A stretch of DNA of 64,000 nucleotides. Source: Escherichia phage vB_EcoS_HZ_ZJUN2. Both the position numbers and the translations under genes were made by a program. This document shows, in pieces, positions 58,969 through 64,000 of this stretch. How positions within the stretch are numbered: the first letter of the stretch is position 1; each line of letters begins with the position of its first letter. Location: the sequence record PP216084; one strand, given 5' to 3'. The notes under the pieces were generated by a model. That model worked only from the letters and a program-made list of their open reading frames with translations, had not been told where the DNA came from and did not search any database.

Positions 58969-59211
58969 TTACGATTCCTTGAGCAAAGAAGCAAGTTCAG
59001 CATAGACTTTATCTAACTCAAAGCCGATGCGAAGAGACACGTTTGTTTTCCGTTGTTTAAGTAACCACTCGGATATGTTAGGGATGCCAGCTAGTCTAGC
59101 AGGAACCACCCTACATAGCTTTTCCGAAGTATCATAAACAGGAACTTTACGTTCTTTTACTGGAAACTTCCTTGTTTCCCATTTTTTATTATTCACTGTC
59201 ATTTCTAGCAC
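58969..59211 (-). CDS. Hypothetical basic protein, 80 aa
   Basis: ORF in track; overlaps the end of the 928 aa gene. Confidence 0.4.
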   Translation of the reverse strand: MLEMTVNNKKWETRKFPVKERKVPVYDTSEKLCRVVPARLAGIPNISEWLLKQRKTNVSLRIGFELDKVYAELASLLKES

Positions 59212-61975
59212 CTAGCTCTGACATTGCTTCTTCTGCCATAGCCTTCTCTTCCTCTGTCATGAATTTGAAAGGAATTGGCATACACTCGATTTTACAATAG
59301 GTTCTGTACCAGTCTACGATATTCTCCGTGTTCATATCTTTACCAATACCCATCATACCAAGATACATTCTAGCATATTTTGGGTTAGCACTCTGGCCTG
59401 TTTTAAGGAAGAAATCCTTTTTCTTACCTTTTAGAGCTTCTATGAATGGTTTAATGGTTACATTTGAACACTTCTTAATGTCTTCCCAGAACATCTCGTG
59501 CATCTTATGAAAGAATGCAGCTCGATCATTTGGTTTATCTTTGATATATTGTTCAACATGCTCAACTGTTACATCTTTAATAGACTCAAGATGATAATAG
59601 CGAACAATAAGTAGTTTAGCTTCATACGCATCAGCATGACGTGGAGCACAATAATCCGGAGTTGAATGTAGAATAGCTTTGATTCGCTCTTCCGTATACT
59701 CTTTTCCTGCACCTTCGATAGTTCCCCAGCTTTCACTGAAAATATCAATAGTTGCACCCTGATCAAGCAAGTAATAGCGTAGAGTACTAGTATAGTTTCT
59801 AGATTCCAGCTCCCTGCGACGTGCATATAGTTGCTGTGCTAACTCCAGCCAACCCTCATCAATGTTATATTGCTCAGAACCTGCGGAGAATCCACTCGTA
59901 GATTTATCAATAAAATAATAAATGTTCTGAGCGCCACGGTCGCGCCTGATTGCTTGGAAACGCATGTTTGGCGCTTGGTTTGAGGTTCTAGTGATAACGA
60001 ATACGTTATCAAAATAGTTGAAGTCAACACCACTAGTTACGGATGGACTACATAATAAGCAATCAATTTGTTGGTCAATTAGCTCATTAGTTGTGTAATC
60101 CAGGATACGTCGAATATCTACATCAGACGTAGAGTTTGAATGGATTTCCTTAACTAACGCACCCGTATTACGACGCAATGCCATGCCCTTCTCATTCAGT
60201 TCATCAGGGCCACAATCAGATACCAGAATAGATTTCTCCCCCATCTCTAGAGAAGTCTGAAGTGCAACCCAAATACTGGATTCGTCAGGGAATTCATAAG
60301 CATGAGCTTTTGATAGCATCTTACGGTGATGATTATAAAATGCTACTGGTTTATCAAAATCAATTAGAGAACCATATGCTTCAATAGTTTCGGCACTAAT
60401 ATCACCATCTGATAGAATCACAGTTTTAGCTGTCATGAGGATGTCACGTAGAACTTGAATACATTCGCGACGTTGTTTAACAACTGGGGCGAATAATAGA
60501 TCATTCATTACAGCGTCACATTCATCAATAAAGATGGTGTCTATTTGACCAATAAAACTTTTGAACTTATGCAAAGAGTGAATAGTTGTGGACATACGAT
60601 CAATAGCCCCACGTTTAAAGTTGAGCATATCTACAGACTTATCATATTGTCCTGCGCTAAATTTCTTAGCGTTTGAAGATACCAGCGCTCTAGTATTTGT
60701 AACTGCTAAAAAGTTGCCAGGAAGAACACCTGCGTCCAGCCATTTAGTTACTGCCGTAGTTTTACCAGTACCAAGACTTGCCTTAACAAAGGTTATGTGG
60801 CCTTTTGGAGGCACAATGTTAATCTTCAGGTATGGAACTTCTGGTGGAGAATCCACTTCTAATTTCTTGAGTGGAACACCCTTCAGATTTAATGGAATCT
60901 CACGTTTAGAATTATTAACAAACGCTTTGAGAGCCTGCTTACGACCGTTATTAAAGTAATCTTGAATATTACGACTGTTATCTTTAGTTGCAATATATTC
61001 AGATAAAGCGGGTTTAATCTCACGTTCTAGCCATGCGAAATCAACACCATCCTCTAATGCTCTATGGTATAGTTTAGGGATAATACGCAAGTACACCCCA
61101 TCCTCAGCTTCTTCCAATTCGCTGATAGTTTCTTCTACTTTATCAGACGCGATCTTTTTGCCTTTAATTTGGTCAAGTAAGGAATAGAATTCCTCTTTGA
61201 ACTCCCCTCTAGTTGTTTCATAGTCAACCAGATTATTAGGCAAATTTACCTTCGAACCTTTAACATACACCAGACGTGGCTTACTCTCCGCTTTAAACGG
61301 ATCAACAATACCATCACTAAATAAAGGATCGGCAAAATAATGGAGCTGGACAGATGAATAATAAGCTAAGTCGGCAATGTCAAAACCGAATTTTTGCTTA
61401 CTACTATCATTGATAGACGTAAATAAGAACTTTAACTGACCTTGAGTTACCTTGACGTTAGATTCTAGCATTAAGTGCATTCGGATACCTGGTTTTAGGC
61501 CAGCCGAAGACGATGCATGAGCAATAAATCCTGCATCAAGAGGAAACATGTCCTCACTAATACTATTCAACATCTTAATAATGTGGCGGGCCATACCTAC
61601 AAGATTAAACTTGTCGTATCCACCGGTATCTAGGATACCATCCACGTCCATAGCAATAATATTGCTATGGTTGGATACATTAAAGTTACCTTTCTTACGC
61701 CGCACGTTATTTTTAGGTGCAAGACATCGACCTCGTACCGCAACGATATGAGGGTCTGACGTTAAACGTCTCATAAGAGGTAACATTTCGGCAAGGCTTT
61801 GCGGGTCATGCTCTTCTATTACATCAAATTTGAATGGCATAGAGGCTGGTTTACCTTCTGGATGCTCTTTCGAGAATCGCTTGGCAAAGGTATAATCTTC
61901 CGCTTTGATTTCTCGCCAAATACCTGTTGCTAAATCGCGAGAAAATCCGGCGTGACCTTGAAGAATAGAAAACAC
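59189..61975 (-). CDS. Large replication protein, 928 aa; origin-binding-protein-like helicase with distinct N-terminal domain
   Basis: Walker A SLGTGKTT, Walker B IFIDECDA, helicase-C-like segment; N-terminal ~350 aa unassigned. Confidence 0.6.
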   Translation of the reverse strand: MFSILQGHAGFSRDLATGIWREIKAEDYTFAKRFSKEHPEGKPASMPFKFDVIEEHDPQSLAEMLPLMRRLTSDPHIVAVRGRCLAPKNNVRRKKGNFNVSNHSNIIAMDVDGILDTGGYDKFNLVGMARHIIKMLNSISEDMFPLDAGFIAHASSSAGLKPGIRMHLMLESNVKVTQGQLKFLFTSINDSSKQKFGFDIADLAYYSSVQLHYFADPLFSDGIVDPFKAESKPRLVYVKGSKVNLPNNLVDYETTRGEFKEEFYSLLDQIKGKKIASDKVEETISELEEAEDGVYLRIIPKLYHRALEDGVDFAWLEREIKPALSEYIATKDNSRNIQDYFNNGRKQALKAFVNNSKREIPLNLKGVPLKKLEVDSPPEVPYLKINIVPPKGHITFVKASLGTGKTTAVTKWLDAGVLPGNFLAVTNTRALVSSNAKKFSAGQYDKSVDMLNFKRGAIDRMSTTIHSLHKFKSFIGQIDTIFIDECDAVMNDLLFAPVVKQRRECIQVLRDILMTAKTVILSDGDISAETIEAYGSLIDFDKPVAFYNHHRKMLSKAHAYEFPDESSIWVALQTSLEMGEKSILVSDCGPDELNEKGMALRRNTGALVKEIHSNSTSDVDIRRILDYTTNELIDQQIDCLLCSPSVTSGVDFNYFDNVFVITRTSNQAPNMRFQAIRRDRGAQNIYYFIDKSTSGFSAGSEQYNIDEGWLELAQQLYARRRELESRNYTSTLRYYLLDQGATIDIFSESWGTIEGAGKEYTEERIKAILHSTPDYCAPRHADAYEAKLLIVRYYHLESIKDVTVEHVEQYIKDKPNDRAAFFHKMHEMFWEDIKKCSNVTIKPFIEALKGKKKDFFLKTGQSANPKYARMYLGMMGIGKDMNTENIVDWYRTYCKIECMPIPFKFMTEEEKAMAEEAMSELGARNDSE

Positions 61976-62483
61976 AACAATACTCCTGTGTTGGTTAATC
62001 GAAAATCTTTTCTTTAGGACTATTCAGAAAGAATAGAACAACTATTACTACTATTTACGTAAACATCAATTATCATCAAGCAATATGAATAAGTTATCAT
62101 ATCTCAGTGCTGTGCTCTCTTCGCTCATATACAGAATAGAACCTAGGTCATTGGCCGCTAAGCCGATTCTATTTGTCCTCACTATCCTATTGGTAGGTGA
62201 CTACTGTACGTGCCGCCATTCGCTGCTCTTTTCGTTCGCACCCCCATATAAAGCTCTGCCTATATAACGAGCTAAATATGCACGGTTTGGATTTACCTTT
62301 CCGAATTCAGGGTACACAGATCACTTAATTGAAGATTAACTAATGCAATATAAACACTAGTAATAGTTAAAACAACCCTTAATGGGGCAGCCTAACTGTT
62401 CCGTATCGCGGATTGTAAACAAGAAAAATTAGCAAAATCAATTTTTACTAATGTCTCTCAATTCAATATAAATATTATATCAA

Positions 62484-62512
62484 GATTTTGGGCATCATGC
62501 AAGTAAATTTTT
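62484..62512 (-). promoter_or_regulatory. T5-type early promoter (TTGCAT-17-TATAAT) with AT-rich UP region
   Basis: Reverse complement; fires into a ~500 nt region without a long ORF before the 928 aa gene. Confidence 0.55.
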
Positions 62513-62593
62513 CCCAAAGGTGCTATCAGTGTCTTTGAGCATAGAGAAAACCGAGCCAAAATGACTCGGTAATCAGAGTTCAGCTAATAAAAA

Positions 62594-62986
62594 TCATTTG
62601 TCATTTAGGCCTGGAACATAGATCCCAACACGGTTTAATTGTTCTTTAGCTTCTTTGAGAATATCTGGAGTGTATTCCCAAATATCATCTTCCACCTGTA
62701 AAAGATGGGGCGAACAACCGTCATCCGGCACACGACATATGGCCAAACCACGTGGATGGAATATAGAGAAGTTTAGGGCAACAATCAAGCCCATAGCAGA
62801 CAATTCATTCCAATCCAATTCCCATTCCCCGGCGTATCCAGACAGGAAAACACCAACACAGGGATCATCTGTTTGCTGCTCAGGAAAAGTGAAGGAGGCT
62901 TGTCTTACCCCCAACCAACGTTGTAGCAGCTTTTCCGCACGCTTCACCAAACTAGGGTCAATCTGACGCCAAAATACTTGTTCCAT
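62594..62986 (-). CDS. Hypothetical protein, 130 aa, paralog of 62996-63424
   Basis: Shared motifs PC[VI]G, W[EK]ELD, MGL[IV], ALN, PGL[NT]. Confidence 0.55.
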   Translation of the reverse strand: MEQVFWRQIDPSLVKRAEKLLQRWLGVRQASFTFPEQQTDDPCVGVFLSGYAGEWELDWNELSAMGLIVALNFSIFHPRGLAICRVPDDGCSPHLLQVEDDIWEYTPDILKEAKEQLNRVGIYVPGLNDK

Positions 62987-62995
62987 TCTGCCTCC

Positions 62996-63424
62996 TTAAG
63001 CAGTTAAACCTGGGATCATATACCCGAAACGTCGAAGTTTCTGAATCCCCTCATTTACTTCTTCCGGTGAGTAAGACCAACCATAACGTTCATTAACTTG
63101 AAAACCAGGAGATTCACTAGTTTTATAGTTAACAACGAGGCGATGCTTAGCAGGCATAAACAGCTTATAGTTTAACGCAAAAACTAAGCCCATTTCATCT
63201 AACTCTTTCCAGCCGACAATCTCTTCAAGACCATCCTCTACCTGAACAATTAAACCAATACAGGGAGCCTCATCAATATCATCTTTAAAGGCAAAGGAGA
63301 TTTCGTTATTCTCACACCATATTTTCAAAGAGTTAATAGCCTCATTATACAGGCTAGCCGGGAGAGTACGCCAAAAGTTAACCAAAATTGGGTTAGCTTC
63401 TTTAGAGAATACATTATTGAACAT
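62996..63424 (-). CDS. Hypothetical protein, 142 aa, paralog of 62594-62986
   Basis: Same motif set and spacing as the neighbour; tandem arrangement with 9 nt gap. Confidence 0.55.
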   Translation of the reverse strand: MFNNVFSKEANPILVNFWRTLPASLYNEAINSLKIWCENNEISFAFKDDIDEAPCIGLIVQVEDGLEEIVGWKELDEMGLVFALNYKLFMPAKHRLVVNYKTSESPGFQVNERYGWSYSPEEVNEGIQKLRRFGYMIPGLTA

Positions 63425-63426
63425 AT

Positions 63427-63933
63427 TTACACCTTAAATTGCTGTAAGGATTTACACATTTCAAGATCTGGGCTAAATTCTAGCATATAGCTAACAGCTT
63501 TTAAATCTTGAAGATTTATCCCAGTCCTACCGTTGACTATAACCGTTGGATACTGATACATCATAGCACCCGCATCATCAAGCACACACCAATGTTTGAG
63601 CTTATGCTTTTCAACGAAGCGAAGAACAGAATTACCCCTAGATAATCCACCCCCAGTAAAATCCGTTGTACCAAGAAAACGATCGATAAGACCTAATCCG
63701 GTCATAATCCGAACGTTCTCCATCTCATTTCTAACAGAGAACCAAGATGATACTCCAACAATCATTATCGGAGAAAGACGAATAAAGTCCTGAAAAGCCT
63801 TGAGAAGCGGTTTGAAAACCCAGTCACTTCCAAAGAAAATCTTTTCATCATCAGGTGCATGATGGTGGGAGATGCTCGAATTGAGCACTCCATCAATGTC
63901 CAGAAAAATAATTGGAGTATTACTTATTTCCAT
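63427..63933 (-). CDS. HAD-like hydrolase (putative phosphatase), 168 aa
   Basis: N-terminal IIFLDIDGVLNS (HAD motif I) and later VLDDAG. Confidence 0.5.
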   Translation of the reverse strand: MEISNTPIIFLDIDGVLNSSISHHHAPDDEKIFFGSDWVFKPLLKAFQDFIRLSPIMIVGVSSWFSVRNEMENVRIMTGLGLIDRFLGTTDFTGGGLSRGNSVLRFVEKHKLKHWCVLDDAGAMMYQYPTVIVNGRTGINLQDLKAVSYMLEFSPDLEMCKSLQQFKV

Positions 63934-64000
63934 TTTTGTTCCTTTCTAAGAACGTATCATACTCAACCGTATCAACATATATAACACCATAGTCATCGGA

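What the first reader, a model, noticed from the sequence alone, without database searches (positions are those of the whole stretch)
61976..62520. Strong early promoter feeding a ~500 nt region without a long ORF (long leader or ncRNA candidate)
A TTGCAT-17-TATAAT promoter with AT-rich UP element (62484-62512) is oriented toward 61976-62440, where no minus-strand ORF longer than about 20 codons exists before the 928 aa replication gene. The region contains GC-rich segments that could fold, so it may encode a regulatory RNA, a long structured 5' UTR or a decayed gene.
Basis: seen in the sequence. Interest (0 to 1): 0.45.

Follow-up and report, generated by a model that had tools for sequence, protein, structure and literature searches.

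The report
Conserved structured RNA before T5 helicase
The seemingly empty 490 bases between a strong early promoter and the replication helicase gene of this T5-like phage encode a large folded RNA that is better conserved than the neighbouring genes, matches no described RNA family, and has an unknown job probably tied to the helicase.

Summary
The window comes from a T5-like phage (Tequintavirus). The promoter is real: -35 TTGCAT 62502-62497, a 17-nt spacer containing TG, and -10 TATAAT 62479-62474. It is annotated in T5 itself and has counterparts in every related lineage examined. It drives about 490 nt without a conserved ORF, ending at the GTG of the D2/"origin-binding" helicase gene (61975).

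This stretch is the best conserved DNA of the neighbourhood. It is 93.8% identical to Epseptimavirus, against 86% for D2 and 73-83% for the upstream genes. It folds into a defined architecture:
- a 5' hairpin;
- a conserved motif hairpin;
- a long-range AU-rich helix of about 36 bp;
- a multi-helix core with an invariant CUUAGCGG hairpin tip;
- a 3' hairpin.

Covariation supports the fold. Across 12 sequences from eight lineages, 92% of cells are paired, against 32-49% in slid controls. Thirty of 46 pairs show compensatory changes, and 0 of 500 shuffles reach the observed values.

Nothing in Rfam 15 matches at E up to 10, no tRNA or tmRNA is found, and no E. coli genome or plasmid carries it. 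One core module exists as swappable variants.

It is a new structured RNA family. I read it as the processed leader of the D2 mRNA. Function is inferred, not shown.

The parts
62550..62570 (-). Intrinsic terminator closing the upstream operon (DUF7415 genes)
   Evidence: 9-bp stem with 5 G-C pairs followed by a T run. Annotated as a terminator in T5 NC_005859. Equivalent terminators occur in Klebsiella and Erwinia phages.
62474..62515 (-). Early sigma-70 promoter: A/T-rich UP-like stretch 62515-62503, -35 TTGCAT 62502-62497, 17-nt spacer, extended -10 TG 62482-62481, -10 TATAAT 62479-62474. Predicted start about 62467.
   Evidence: Read directly. Annotated as a promoter in T5, T5 st0 and AKFV33. 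The promoter and 5' domain (62515-62353) are 95-99% identical across Tequintavirus and Epseptimavirus type A loci. The promoter core is conserved in the type A and type B alignments. Promoters of the same layout occur in distant lineages.
62020..62467 (-). The structured RNA element as a whole (about 448 nt; no conserved ORF)
   Evidence: RNA fold -122.5 kcal/mol, z = -3.0, against z = -1.2 for the opposite strand. 93.8% identical to Epseptimavirus, against 86% for D2 and 73-83% for the upstream genes. Covariation. No Rfam match at E up to 10.
62421..62459 (-). P1: 5'-terminal hairpin, 16 bp, starting about 8 nt after the predicted transcription start
   Evidence: A hairpin at the same position but with unrelated sequence is seen in Klebsiella, both Pectobacterium, Providencia and Proteus phages. 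In L026 a U.G pair becomes U-A.
62372..62416 (-). Motif hairpin holding the conserved GAUACGGAACAGUUAGGCUGCCCCAUU (62407-62381); tip CAG-UUAGG-CUG
   Evidence: Helix 1: 9 pairs, 4 with compensatory changes (for example CAG/CUG to CGG/CCG in the Erwinia lineage), 97% of cells paired.
62329..62369 (-). Long-range helix, 5' arm (AU-rich; pairs with 62039-62079)
   Evidence: Inverted repeats I1 and I3. 35 pairs in helices 3 and 4, 99-100% paired. The helix is present with different sequence in eight of the nine sequences tested and is weak in Klebsiella. The outer part covaries, AACUAUUAC/GUAAUAGUU against AACUGUUAC/GUAACAGUU.
62039..62079 (-). Long-range helix, 3' arm
   Evidence: As for the 5' arm.
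62106..62325 (-). Core domain closed by helix Hc (62325-62316 with 62113-62106; conserved GAUCUG bulge)
   Evidence: Hc is helices 3 and 4: 8 pairs, 7 with compensatory changes. Within type A, the pair 62316/62113 changes from U-A to C-G.
62238..62315 (-). Core-left module (Hd 62315-62309 with 62244-62238, enclosing two hairpins); the lineage-variable part
   Evidence: Window 62050-62352 is replaced by a different sequence in 'type B' phages. The B-like module has 24 pairs, 14 of them compensatory. Its covariance model does not detect the type A, Klebsiella, Proteus, Providencia, Vibrio or Aeromonas versions.
62135..62173 (-). Hi stem (62173-62165 with 62143-62135) carrying the hairpin GGCUUAGCGGCC (62164-62153), whose central CUUAGCGG is invariant
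   Evidence: CUUAGCGG occurs in every lineage down to Proteus, Providencia and Aeromonas, always 220-224 nt after the 5' motif in types A and B, Klebsiella and Pectobacterium. All 8 Hi pairs show compensatory changes. Two more occur within type A (62172/62136 and 62171/62137). The closing pairs covary. It is present once in the element; two further CTTAGCGG 8-mers on the opposite strand of the window lie inside coding sequences and are within chance.
62080..62105 (-). Hj hairpin between the core and the 3' arm
   Evidence: Compensatory change A-U to G-C at 62102/62083. In types other than A the loop carries GUUGCCACC.
62020..62036 (-). 3' hairpin CUAUUC-UUUCU-GAAUAG, the last conserved structure before the D2 ribosome-binding site
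   Evidence: Invariant in types A and B. Helix 9. It is not followed by a U run, so it is not terminator-like.
61973..61987 (-). Shine-Dalgarno AGGAG (61987-61983) and GTG start (61975-61973) of D2
   Evidence: The N-terminus MFSIL is conserved in all relatives. The 44 nt between the 3' hairpin and the GTG are only 82% conserved.
59189..61975 (-). D2 helicase gene (T5.108, 'replication origin binding protein'), the gene served by this promoter and leader
   Evidence: Pfam Herpes_ori_bp over residues 389-533. PHROG 3712. T5 annotation. Biochemistry in PMC3632103.

Best explanation
SHOWN. The stretch is the template of a structured RNA of about 450 nt (window 62467 to 62020, minus strand). A conserved extended -10 early promoter transcribes it. 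In this phage and in most of its relatives that promoter is the only detectable one for the D2 replication helicase gene, so the RNA is the 5' leader of the D2 mRNA.

Its architecture is:
- a 5'-terminal hairpin;
- a sequence-invariant hairpin tipped UUAGG;
- an AU-rich long-range helix of about 36 bp;
- a core closed by that helix, with an invariant CUUAGCGG hairpin tip and one exchangeable module (types A, B and Klebsiella);
- a small 3' hairpin 33 nt before the D2 Shine-Dalgarno sequence.

The fold, not a reading frame, is what selection preserves.

INFERRED (mechanism, about 45% likely). The element acts at the RNA level, in cis, on the D2 message.
- The 5' hairpin protects the transcript.
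- The long double-stranded stalk is a substrate for a dsRNA endonuclease (host RNase III). It would work like the processing stalks of rRNA precursors and the RNase III sites of T7 and lambda early RNAs.
- Cleavage would detach the folded core and leave a D2 mRNA that begins near the conserved 3' hairpin.
- The two invariant loops would be docking sites for a conserved partner. That partner is most plausibly a phage early or replication protein, possibly D2 itself, which would set how much D2 is made and when.

I put the probability that this is a functional structured RNA at about 0.9. The specific cis-leader and processing role is the weaker part.
For: Promoter and transcription unit:
- The promoter is read directly and is annotated in T5.
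- The order terminator, promoter, element, D2, with no intervening promoter or terminator, holds in the window and in Klebsiella phage. Providencia and Erwinia phages show the same promoter, element, D2 order with no intervening terminator or promoter.

Conservation above the coding neighbours:
- Identity to Epseptimavirus is 93.8% for the element and 96.9% for the 5' domain. It is 86% for D2 and 73-83% for the upstream genes.
- Within Tequintavirus the element is 98.7-100% identical, against about 95% for D2.

Structure:
- The sense strand folds with z = -3.0, the antisense strand with z = -1.2.
- In alignment A5 (12 sequences, 46 pairs), 92% of cells are paired against 32-49% when partners are slid. 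Thirty pairs have compensatory changes against 10-12 in the slid controls. No shuffle out of 500 reaches any measure.
- Type A alone has 148 pairs with 99.5% of cells paired, 6 compensatory pairs (0-1 in slid controls) and 12 pairs with one-sided changes kept via G.U. Only 2 pairs have broken cells.
- The B-like module has 24 pairs, 14 of them compensatory.
- The long-range helix is kept with different sequences in eight of the nine sequences tested; it is weak in Klebsiella.
- G.U pairs fit only the minus-strand transcript.

Other points:
- There is no conserved ORF.
- The spacing between the 5' motif and CUUAGCGG is fixed at 220-224 nt although the intervening sequence differs.
- The element is found in 528 phage records at blastn level, all from T5-like phages. 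It is absent from 5,426 E. coli genomes and 72,556 plasmids.
Against: - No expression platform was found. The 44 nt between the last hairpin and the GTG are the least conserved part of the leader (82%). No conserved SD-sequestering helix or attenuator-type terminator exists.
- Proteus phages have a perfect 12/12 promoter between the element and D2.
- Aeromonas TS3 and Vibrio D233 have terminators between their long ORF-free region and D2. D2 can therefore be expressed without the leader, and the RNA can be a separate transcript. Homology of the Vibrio regions is unproven.
- A leader of about 450 nt with junction-rich architecture and an exchangeable module is far larger than any known translational operator.
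- No transcript ends, RNase III cleavage or binding partner could be tested here.
Confidence: 0.45

Rival explanations
1. A trans-acting stable non-coding RNA. The folded core, alone or with the 5' domain, would be the product that matters: the RNA part of a ribonucleoprotein, a decoy or sponge for a host or defence factor, a ribozyme, or a self-assembling 'ornate' RNA like ROOL or GOLLD. Its position in front of D2 would be inherited gene order only.
For: - Size and complexity are typical of ornate RNAs rather than of operators.
- Invariant unpaired loops imply a specific partner.
- One exchangeable core module (A, B, Klebsiella types) sits between nearly identical flanks. That mosaic pattern is common at host-interaction loci.
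- The element is uncoupled from D2 in Proteus by an extra promoter, and apparently in Aeromonas and Vibrio D233 by terminators.
- The long stalk would release the core, as for rRNA precursors.
- Gene order in T5-like phages is conserved in general, so linkage to D2 is weak evidence for a cis role.
Against: - In the window and in the Klebsiella, Providencia and Erwinia relatives scanned there is no terminator after the element. It is therefore made as part of the D2 mRNA.
- No partner, target or catalytic motif was identified.
- No match to any Rfam ncRNA.
- The two perfect complements of the loop elsewhere in the window lie inside coding sequences and are within chance expectation.
Confidence: 0.3
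2. An origin-of-replication transcript. The promoter-driven RNA would activate or prime initiation next to the gene of the presumed initiator helicase D2. Analogues are ColE1 RNA II, the promoter-plus-unwinding-element origins of T4, and the T7 primary origin.
For: - It is adjacent to the UL9-like 'origin-binding' helicase, which has been proposed as the T5 initiator (PMC3632103; Pfam).
- The promoter is strong.
- AT-rich stretches are present, with 26% G+C at 62000-62099.
- In T5 the locus lies at 48.5-48.9% of the genome. Multiple internal origins were reported by electron microscopy (Bourguignon 1976, as cited). That the main one is central is my recollection; I could not check it.
- ColE1 RNA II is also a structured transcript of about 550 nt.
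Against: [quoted passage not shown] This speaks against a dominant central bidirectional origin.
- There are no conserved iterons. The only repeat, GTTCTATTCT in three copies, is not kept in type B.
- No conserved G-rich segment suited to a persistent RNA-DNA hybrid exists. GGGGG occurs in type A only.
- The AT-rich stretches are the two arms of a covarying RNA helix.
- T5 has its own primase.
Confidence: 0.1
3. A DNA-level or single-stranded-DNA element, such as a primosome or helicase loading signal, a recombination hotspot, or terminal inverted repeats of a miniature mobile element. In this reading the inverted repeats matter in DNA, not RNA.
For: - Long inverted repeats flank a cassette of about 260 bp that exists in alternative versions.
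- The same strand folded with DNA parameters also beats shuffles (z = -2.3).
- The intergenic space just upstream is a hotspot for homing-endonuclease insertion.
Against: - Covariation extends to many internal hairpins, not only to the terminal repeats.
- Many conserved G.U pairs and one-sided G.U/A-U exchanges are strand-specific and are weak in DNA.
- The fold begins about 8 nt after a conserved promoter's predicted start in several lineages.
- There is a single copy per genome, with no other copies in the window, in E. coli genomes or in plasmids. That does not fit a mobile element.
Confidence: 0.05
4. A small protein gene, or the remnant of a decayed gene.
For: Sense-strand ORFs of 38, 38, 26 and 21 aa exist. 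Some genome annotations call small 'hypothetical proteins' here, on either strand.
Against: - Both 38-aa ORFs lose the start codon or gain stops in Epseptimavirus although the DNA there is about 93% identical.
- The type B, Klebsiella and Pectobacterium versions share no peptide in a consistent frame.
- The region is more conserved than real genes, which is the opposite of decay.
- Substitutions follow base-pairing rather than codon position.
Confidence: 0.02

Closest known systems
RNase III-processed early leaders and spacers (T7 early-region R sites, lambda N leader) and the processing stalks of rRNA precursors
   Same: A host-polymerase early transcript of a lytic phage. A long, imperfect double-stranded stalk of about 36 bp is formed by sequences flanking a folded domain. 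A hairpin would be left at the new end of the downstream mRNA.
   Different: The known phage sites are simple hairpins of about 50-70 nt. Here the stalk encloses a conserved multi-helix core of about 220 nt, and a separate invariant 5' domain precedes it. Cleavage has not been shown.
Autogenous translational operators of phage replication proteins (T4 gp32, gp43, RegA targets)
   Same: An RNA element in the leader of an essential replication gene. Invariant loops suggest a protein-binding site.
   Different: Those operators are short (tens of nt) and overlap the ribosome-binding site. This element is about 450 nt, ends 33 nt before the SD, and the SD-proximal tail is poorly conserved.
ColE1 RNA II, T4 oriF/oriG transcripts and the T7 primary origin (transcripts that prime or activate replication)
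   Same: A strong promoter, a non-coding transcript of about 500 nt and AT-rich DNA next to replication genes. RNA II also depends on its fold.
   Different: There is no antisense partner, no conserved hybrid-forming G/C tract and no iterons. Published strand-bias data argue against a dominant origin in the middle of T5.
Large 'ornate' bacterial and phage ncRNAs (ROOL, GOLLD, OLE, raiA, HEARO)
   Same: Several hundred nt, many helices and junctions with covariation, phage-borne, function unknown.
   Different: No sequence or structure match to any of them (cmscan). Those RNAs are usually separate genes, often near tRNAs. This one is the leader of a protein-coding mRNA in most lineages and is restricted to T5-like phages.
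Riboswitch or T-box type cis-regulatory leaders
   Same: A 5'-UTR location and a conserved folded 'sensor' with covariation.
   Different: No expression platform (terminator/antiterminator or SD-sequestering helix) was found. It is about twice the size of the largest classes. No Rfam family matches.

Membership tests
Any described RNA family (Rfam 15, 4227 models) | Match to a family covariance model | tested here: not met
   Window 61000-64000 at E up to 10 gave only four chance-level hits (E above 6). Two of them graze the finding's coordinates: snoZ278 over the terminator and promoter, and nuoG in the leader tail. None lies in the folded element. Eleven related loci (55 kb) gave nothing inside the element.
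tRNA / tmRNA | Cloverleaf or tmRNA architecture detectable by ARAGORN | tested here: not met
   0 genes in the whole 64-kb window.
Group I intron | Conserved P3-P9 core (Rfam RF00028) and flanking exons within a gene | tested here: not met
   No RF00028 hit. Upstream of the element lie a terminator and a promoter, not an exon. D2 has its own SD and start.
Riboswitch / cis-regulatory leader | Located in the 5' UTR of the regulated gene | tested here: met
   No promoter or terminator lies between the element and D2 in the window or in the Klebsiella, Providencia and Erwinia relatives.
Riboswitch / cis-regulatory leader | Conserved folded domain supported by covariation | tested here: met
Riboswitch / cis-regulatory leader | Expression platform: alternative terminator or SD-sequestering helix | tested here: not met
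   No terminator-like site lies between 62467 and 61976 on the minus strand. The tail 62019-61976 is only 82% conserved, and no conserved anti-SD pairing exists across lineages.
RNase III-processed leader | Double-stranded stalk of at least about 20 bp | tested here: met
   Arms 62369-62329 and 62079-62039 give 35 predicted pairs. The stalk is present, with different sequences, in eight of the nine sequences tested and is weak in Klebsiella.
RNase III-processed leader | Cleavage by RNase III in vivo | not testable with these tools
   This needs end mapping in rnc+ and rnc- hosts.
Transcript-primed or transcript-activated origin (ColE1 RNA II, T4 ori, T7 ori) | Promoter directed into an origin region next to replication genes | tested here: inconclusive
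   The promoter and the adjacency to D2 are met. Whether an origin lies here is unknown. Recombitron strand bias argues for replication from one end.
Transcript-primed or transcript-activated origin (ColE1 RNA II, T4 ori, T7 ori) | Conserved hybrid-forming tract, iterons, or an antisense regulator | tested here: not met
   GGGGG occurs only in type A. The only direct repeat is not conserved. No opposing promoter was found inside the element.
Ornate large ncRNA (ROOL/GOLLD/OLE class) | More than 300 nt with many covarying helices and junctions | tested here: met
   About 448 nt, 17 predicted helices and 148 pairs.
Ornate large ncRNA (ROOL/GOLLD/OLE class) | Homology to one of those families, or a stand-alone gene with its own terminator | tested here: not met
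   No cmscan match. No terminator follows the element in the T5-like lineages.
Small protein gene | Reading frame conserved among relatives | tested here: not met

The most novel reading that the evidence does not exclude
This would be a previously unrecognised class of large 'ornate' RNA, universal in T5-like phages and acting as an RNA machine in its own right. It could be a ribonucleoprotein or ribozyme needed for D2-dependent initiation of replication, for example an RNA platform on which the UL9-like helicase is loaded. Alternatively it could be a self-assembling or decoy RNA with an exchangeable specificity module (types A, B, Klebsiella). It would be released from the D2 leader by cleavage of its long stalk.
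Probability: 0.2. Interest if true: 0.9.

Novelty: new variant of a known kind. Interest (0 to 1): 0.68.

Why it matters
T5 is a classical model phage, and its relatives are widely isolated for therapy and biocontrol. Yet the best conserved 450 bases near its replication genes are left blank in the reference annotations, or filled with spurious small ORFs in others.

A new covariation-supported large RNA family, with more than 500 sequenced members, gives RNA biologists a tractable object. It comes with E. coli genetics, a strong natural promoter and natural module swaps.

Its fixed link to the D2 helicase offers a concrete handle on how T5 replication is started and dosed, which is still poorly understood. 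It also has a practical use for annotation pipelines and for people engineering T5-like genomes, who should not treat this gap as a neutral insertion site.

Tried and rejected
- Rfam at permissive thresholds, on the window and on 11 relatives, gave nothing. ARAGORN gave nothing.
- Small-ORF and decayed-gene readings are rejected.
- A degenerate motif scan of bacterial genomes (ACRGAACRGTYNGGCYGNNNCA) was too unspecific. By my own estimate (about 32 bits of information searched in 596 Gb) roughly 280 chance hits are expected, and the 120+ hits are scattered across unrelated phyla. Only 2 have CTTAGC[GC]G downstream, so they are judged to be chance. In IMG/VR the same pattern recovered the T5-like contigs plus a few unrelated ones.
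- The covariance model of the B-type core-left module did not find the type A, Klebsiella, Proteus, Providencia, Vibrio or Aeromonas versions. That module is therefore not universal.
- The Vibrio phage ORF-free regions upstream of D2 do not fold better than shuffles and lack the motifs, so homology is not claimed.
- Sequence-based alignment of the UUAGCG stem failed because the 3' bulge varies in length. The outer stem was checked by eye and in alignment A5 instead.
- Possible targets complementary to the invariant loop (52920 and 54163) lie inside coding sequences and are within chance expectation.
- The N-terminal 380 aa of D2 were searched for relatives in order to model the structure. Only 2 fragments were found, so this was abandoned.
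- Nine literature searches found no description of this RNA. The 1976 electron-microscopy paper on T5 origins is not held.
- The T5 'Rad' anti-retron factor is a protein encoded elsewhere.
- No homologue exists in complete E. coli genomes or in plasmids.
Full report
CONTEXT. The window is a T5-like phage. The 721 bases around the finding are 98.6% identical to Escherichia phage SelmaRatti and match 528 phage records, all of them T5 relatives. The '928 aa replication gene' is T5 D2 (T5.108). It is annotated as 'replication origin binding protein' because its helicase domain resembles herpesvirus UL9 (Pfam Herpes_ori_bp over residues 389-533; PHROG 3712). D2 was characterised biochemically as a bipolar helicase and proposed as the initiator (PMC3632103). 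Upstream lie two DUF7415 genes and a gene with a HAD domain.

THE OBSERVATION. On the minus strand an intrinsic terminator (62570-62550) closes the upstream operon. After it come an A/T-rich stretch, -35 TTGCAT (62502-62497), a 17-nt spacer, TG (62482-62481) and a perfect -10 TATAAT (62479-62474). The consensus scan did not list the site only because TTGCAT scores 3 of 6 against TTGACA. It does fit the T5 promoter consensus quoted in the AKFV33 record. The same site is annotated as a promoter in both T5 records.

From the predicted start (about 62467) to the GTG of D2 (61975) there are about 490 nt. None is real. In Epseptimavirus, where this DNA is still about 93% identical, one 38-codon ORF has lost its start and gained a stop, and the other has an internal stop. 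Peptide similarities between lineages appear in all six frames, and only at one conserved nucleotide motif.

CONSERVATION. A sliding comparison over 5 kb shows that this 'empty' stretch is the most conserved DNA of the neighbourhood. Measured against Epseptimavirus type A loci, identity is:
- 93.8% for the element, and 96.9% for the promoter plus 5' domain;
- 86% for D2;
- 73-83% for the three upstream genes.

Within Tequintavirus the element is 98.7-100% identical, against about 95% for D2. That excludes a decaying gene and demands a function for the sequence itself.

STRUCTURE. The sense strand folds to -122.5 kcal/mol (z = -3.0, with none of 100 shuffles as good). The opposite strand gives z = -1.2. 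The model has 17 helices (coordinates):
- P1, a 16-bp hairpin about 8 nt after the start (62459-62421);
- a hairpin holding the invariant GAUACGGAACAGUUAGGCUGCCCCAUU (62407-62381);
- an AU-rich long-range helix of about 36 bp (62369-62329 with 62079-62039);
- helix Hc (62325-62316 with 62113-62106), which closes the core;
- a core-left module (62315-62238);
- helices Hg and Hi, which carry the hairpin GGCUUAGCGGCC (62164-62153);
- hairpin Hj (62105-62080);
- a 3' hairpin (62036-62020), 33 nt before the AGGAG of D2.

COMPARATIVE EVIDENCE. I fetched the D2-upstream region from 33 IMG/VR loci, from metagenomes and from GenBank phages. All enterobacterial T5-like lineages have the same layout of terminator, promoter, long ORF-free stretch and D2. 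These are Tequintavirus, Epseptimavirus, Klebsiella Sugarlandvirus-like phages, Pectobacterium My1 and DU_PP_V, Erwinia KEY, Proteus Stubb and Providencia PSTCR5.

An alignment of 12 sequences from eight of these lineages gave an RNAalifold consensus of 46 pairs in 9 helices:
- 92% of cells form pairs, against 32-49% when the 3' partner is slid by 1-3 columns;
- 30 pairs carry compensatory double changes, against 10-12 in the slid controls;
- the covariation score is 0.52, against 0.06-0.15;
- 0 of 500 column shuffles reach any of the five measures.

Within type A alone the window's own fold (148 pairs) is kept in 99.5% of cells. Six pairs differ on both sides between T5 and Epseptimavirus, for example 62316/62113 U-A to C-G and 62207/62131 A-U to C-G. 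The slid controls give 0-1 such pairs. Twelve pairs with one-sided changes all keep pairing through G.U, and only two pairs have broken cells. These G.U exchanges work only in the minus-strand transcript.

P1 exists at the same place with unrelated sequences in Klebsiella, Pectobacterium, Providencia and Proteus phages. The long-range helix is likewise rebuilt from different sequences in eight of the nine sequences tested; it is weak in Klebsiella. The octamer CUUAGCGG at the hairpin tip is invariant down to Proteus, Providencia and Aeromonas phages. Its supporting stem Hi has compensatory changes at all 8 pairs. The octamer always lies 220-224 nt after the 5' motif although the sequence in between differs.

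A MODULAR CORE. In roughly half of the Escherichia and Salmonella T5-like phages, window 62050-62352 is replaced by a different sequence of the same length ('type B'), between flanks that stay above 90% identical. Type B resembles the Erwinia KEY and metagenome version (69% identity). Its core-left module has its own well-supported fold, with 24 pairs of which 14 are compensatory. A covariance model of that module finds the B, KEY, DU_PP_V and My1 versions at E of 1e-14 or lower. It does not find the type A, Klebsiella, Proteus, Providencia, Vibrio or Aeromonas versions. So there is a shared scaffold and one exchangeable module. The scaffold is P1, the motif hairpin, the stalk, Hc, Hi with the UUAGCG hairpin, and the 3' hairpin.

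LIMITS OF THE FAMILY. Proteus (about 760 nt) and Providencia (about 610 nt) versions are longer but share the CUUAGCGG hairpin. Aeromonas TS3 has about 1.6 kb without genes before D2, with two such hairpins and a strong terminator before D2. Two Vibrio lineages also have long ORF-poor gaps, but these neither fold better than shuffles nor carry the motifs, so I do not claim homology. The element has no match in 5,426 complete E. coli genomes or 72,556 plasmids. It occurs once in the window; the two other CTTAGCGG 8-mers there lie on the opposite strand inside coding sequences and are within chance.

WHAT IT IS NOT. No Rfam 15 family matches the window or eleven relatives at E up to 10. There is no tRNA or tmRNA. 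It is not an intron, because a terminator and a promoter lie upstream and D2 has its own SD and start. Nine literature searches found no description of an RNA here. The T5 reference records annotate nothing between the promoter and D2.

HOW IT MOST LIKELY WORKS. The following is shown: an early promoter, a structured RNA under selection, and no promoter or terminator between it and D2 in the window or in the Klebsiella, Providencia and Erwinia relatives. It is therefore the leader of the D2 mRNA.

The following is inferred. The 5' hairpin stabilises the transcript. The 36-bp stalk is a natural substrate for RNase III, like rRNA processing stalks and the T7 and lambda early RNase III sites. Cutting it would free the core and leave a D2 mRNA headed by the conserved 3' hairpin. 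The invariant loops UUAGG and UUAGCG would bind a conserved partner that sets D2 output. I give this cis-leader and processing model about 45%.

Several points count against it:
- The SD-proximal tail is the least conserved part (82%).
- No expression platform exists.
- Proteus phages have a perfect second promoter right before D2.
- Aeromonas and Vibrio D233 have terminators there.

Those facts favour the main rival, about 30%: a trans-acting stable RNA or ribonucleoprotein that is merely co-transcribed with D2.

An origin or primer transcript (about 10%) is attractive because of D2 and because the locus sits at 48.5-48.9% of the T5 genome. However, there are no conserved iterons or hybrid-forming tracts. 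The AT-rich DNA consists of the covarying arms of an RNA helix. Recombitron editing also indicates replication predominantly from one end of T5 (PMC10055335).

A DNA or ssDNA element (about 5%) and a small protein or decayed gene (about 2%) fit the data poorly.

VERDICT. This is a new family of large structured RNA, universal in enterobacterial T5-like phages and physically coupled to the replication helicase gene. Its existence and fold are well supported. Its function is inferred only.

Noticed in passing
window 63427-63933 (minus strand): The 168-aa protein three genes upstream matches Pfam HAD_SAK_2, the 'HAD domain in Swiss Army Knife RNA repair proteins' (E = 8e-20). Its homologue is annotated as 'Sir2 (NAD-dependent deacetylase)' in T5 (NC_005859), Sw2 and vB_SenS-3, and only as a hypothetical protein in T5 st0. 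That label looks wrong, and an RNA-repair link near a structured RNA may be worth a look.
   Followed up: partly
window 62594-62986 and 62996-63424 (minus strand): Two adjacent paralogous genes (130 and 142 aa) both carry DUF7415 (E = 1e-31 and 3e-35). They are among the fastest-evolving genes of the neighbourhood, at 73-76% identity to Epseptimavirus.
   Followed up: no
between window 62550 and 62480; loci L001, L007, L013, L018, L024, L081: In several related phages (AKFV33, SHSML-45, BB1 and others) a free-standing homing-endonuclease gene of about 0.5-0.7 kb is inserted between the terminator and the promoter of the element. It replaces the first bases of the transcript (CAUAAAUGAGAGA instead of UAUUGAAUUGAGAGA) but leaves P1 intact.
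   Followed up: partly
L014 1960-2055 (also L019, L034); corresponds to window about 62421: Some phages carry an extra G+C-richer insert of about 90 nt, with its own hairpin, exactly after P1. It is flanked by an 8-bp direct repeat TTTTTCTT. It looks like a target-site duplication or an expansion segment of the RNA.
   Followed up: partly
L217 5450, L226 1751, L231 4347, L237 (minus) 4006: Four unrelated IMG/VR phage contigs (25-47 kb) share a non-coding stretch of about 170 nt. It starts with ACGGAACGGTCGGGCTGAAACA, contains CGCUAA (the complement of the UUAGCG loop) and ends in a strong terminator. It is probably an unrelated small RNA. The motif resemblance may be chance.
   Followed up: partly
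window 61962-61971, 62030-62039, 62133-62142: The decamer GTTCTATTCT (minus strand) occurs three times: in the Hi stem, in the 3' hairpin and in codons 2-5 of D2. It is not conserved in type B phages, so it is probably not an iteron.
   Followed up: yes
window 60836-61975 (D2 residues 1-380): The N-terminal 380 aa of D2 match no Pfam family and no solved structure. They have almost no relatives in the large protein database (2 fragments), although they are well conserved among T5-like phages.
   Followed up: partly
L002 2021 (Salmonella phage Sw2) and other records: Annotations of this region disagree. Sw2 starts D2 125 nt upstream, inside the RNA. vB_SenS-3 calls an antisense 43-aa ORF. Other records call 'hypothetical proteins', 'tail tube protein' or 'DNA primase C' over the element. 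All of these are likely artefacts of ORF calling in a non-coding RNA gene.
   Followed up: partly
window 62441-62412 (minus strand): A second, weaker promoter-like site (TTGATT-18-TACAAT, 9 of 12) lies inside the invariant P1 hairpin. It cannot be told apart from a chance match.
   Followed up: no
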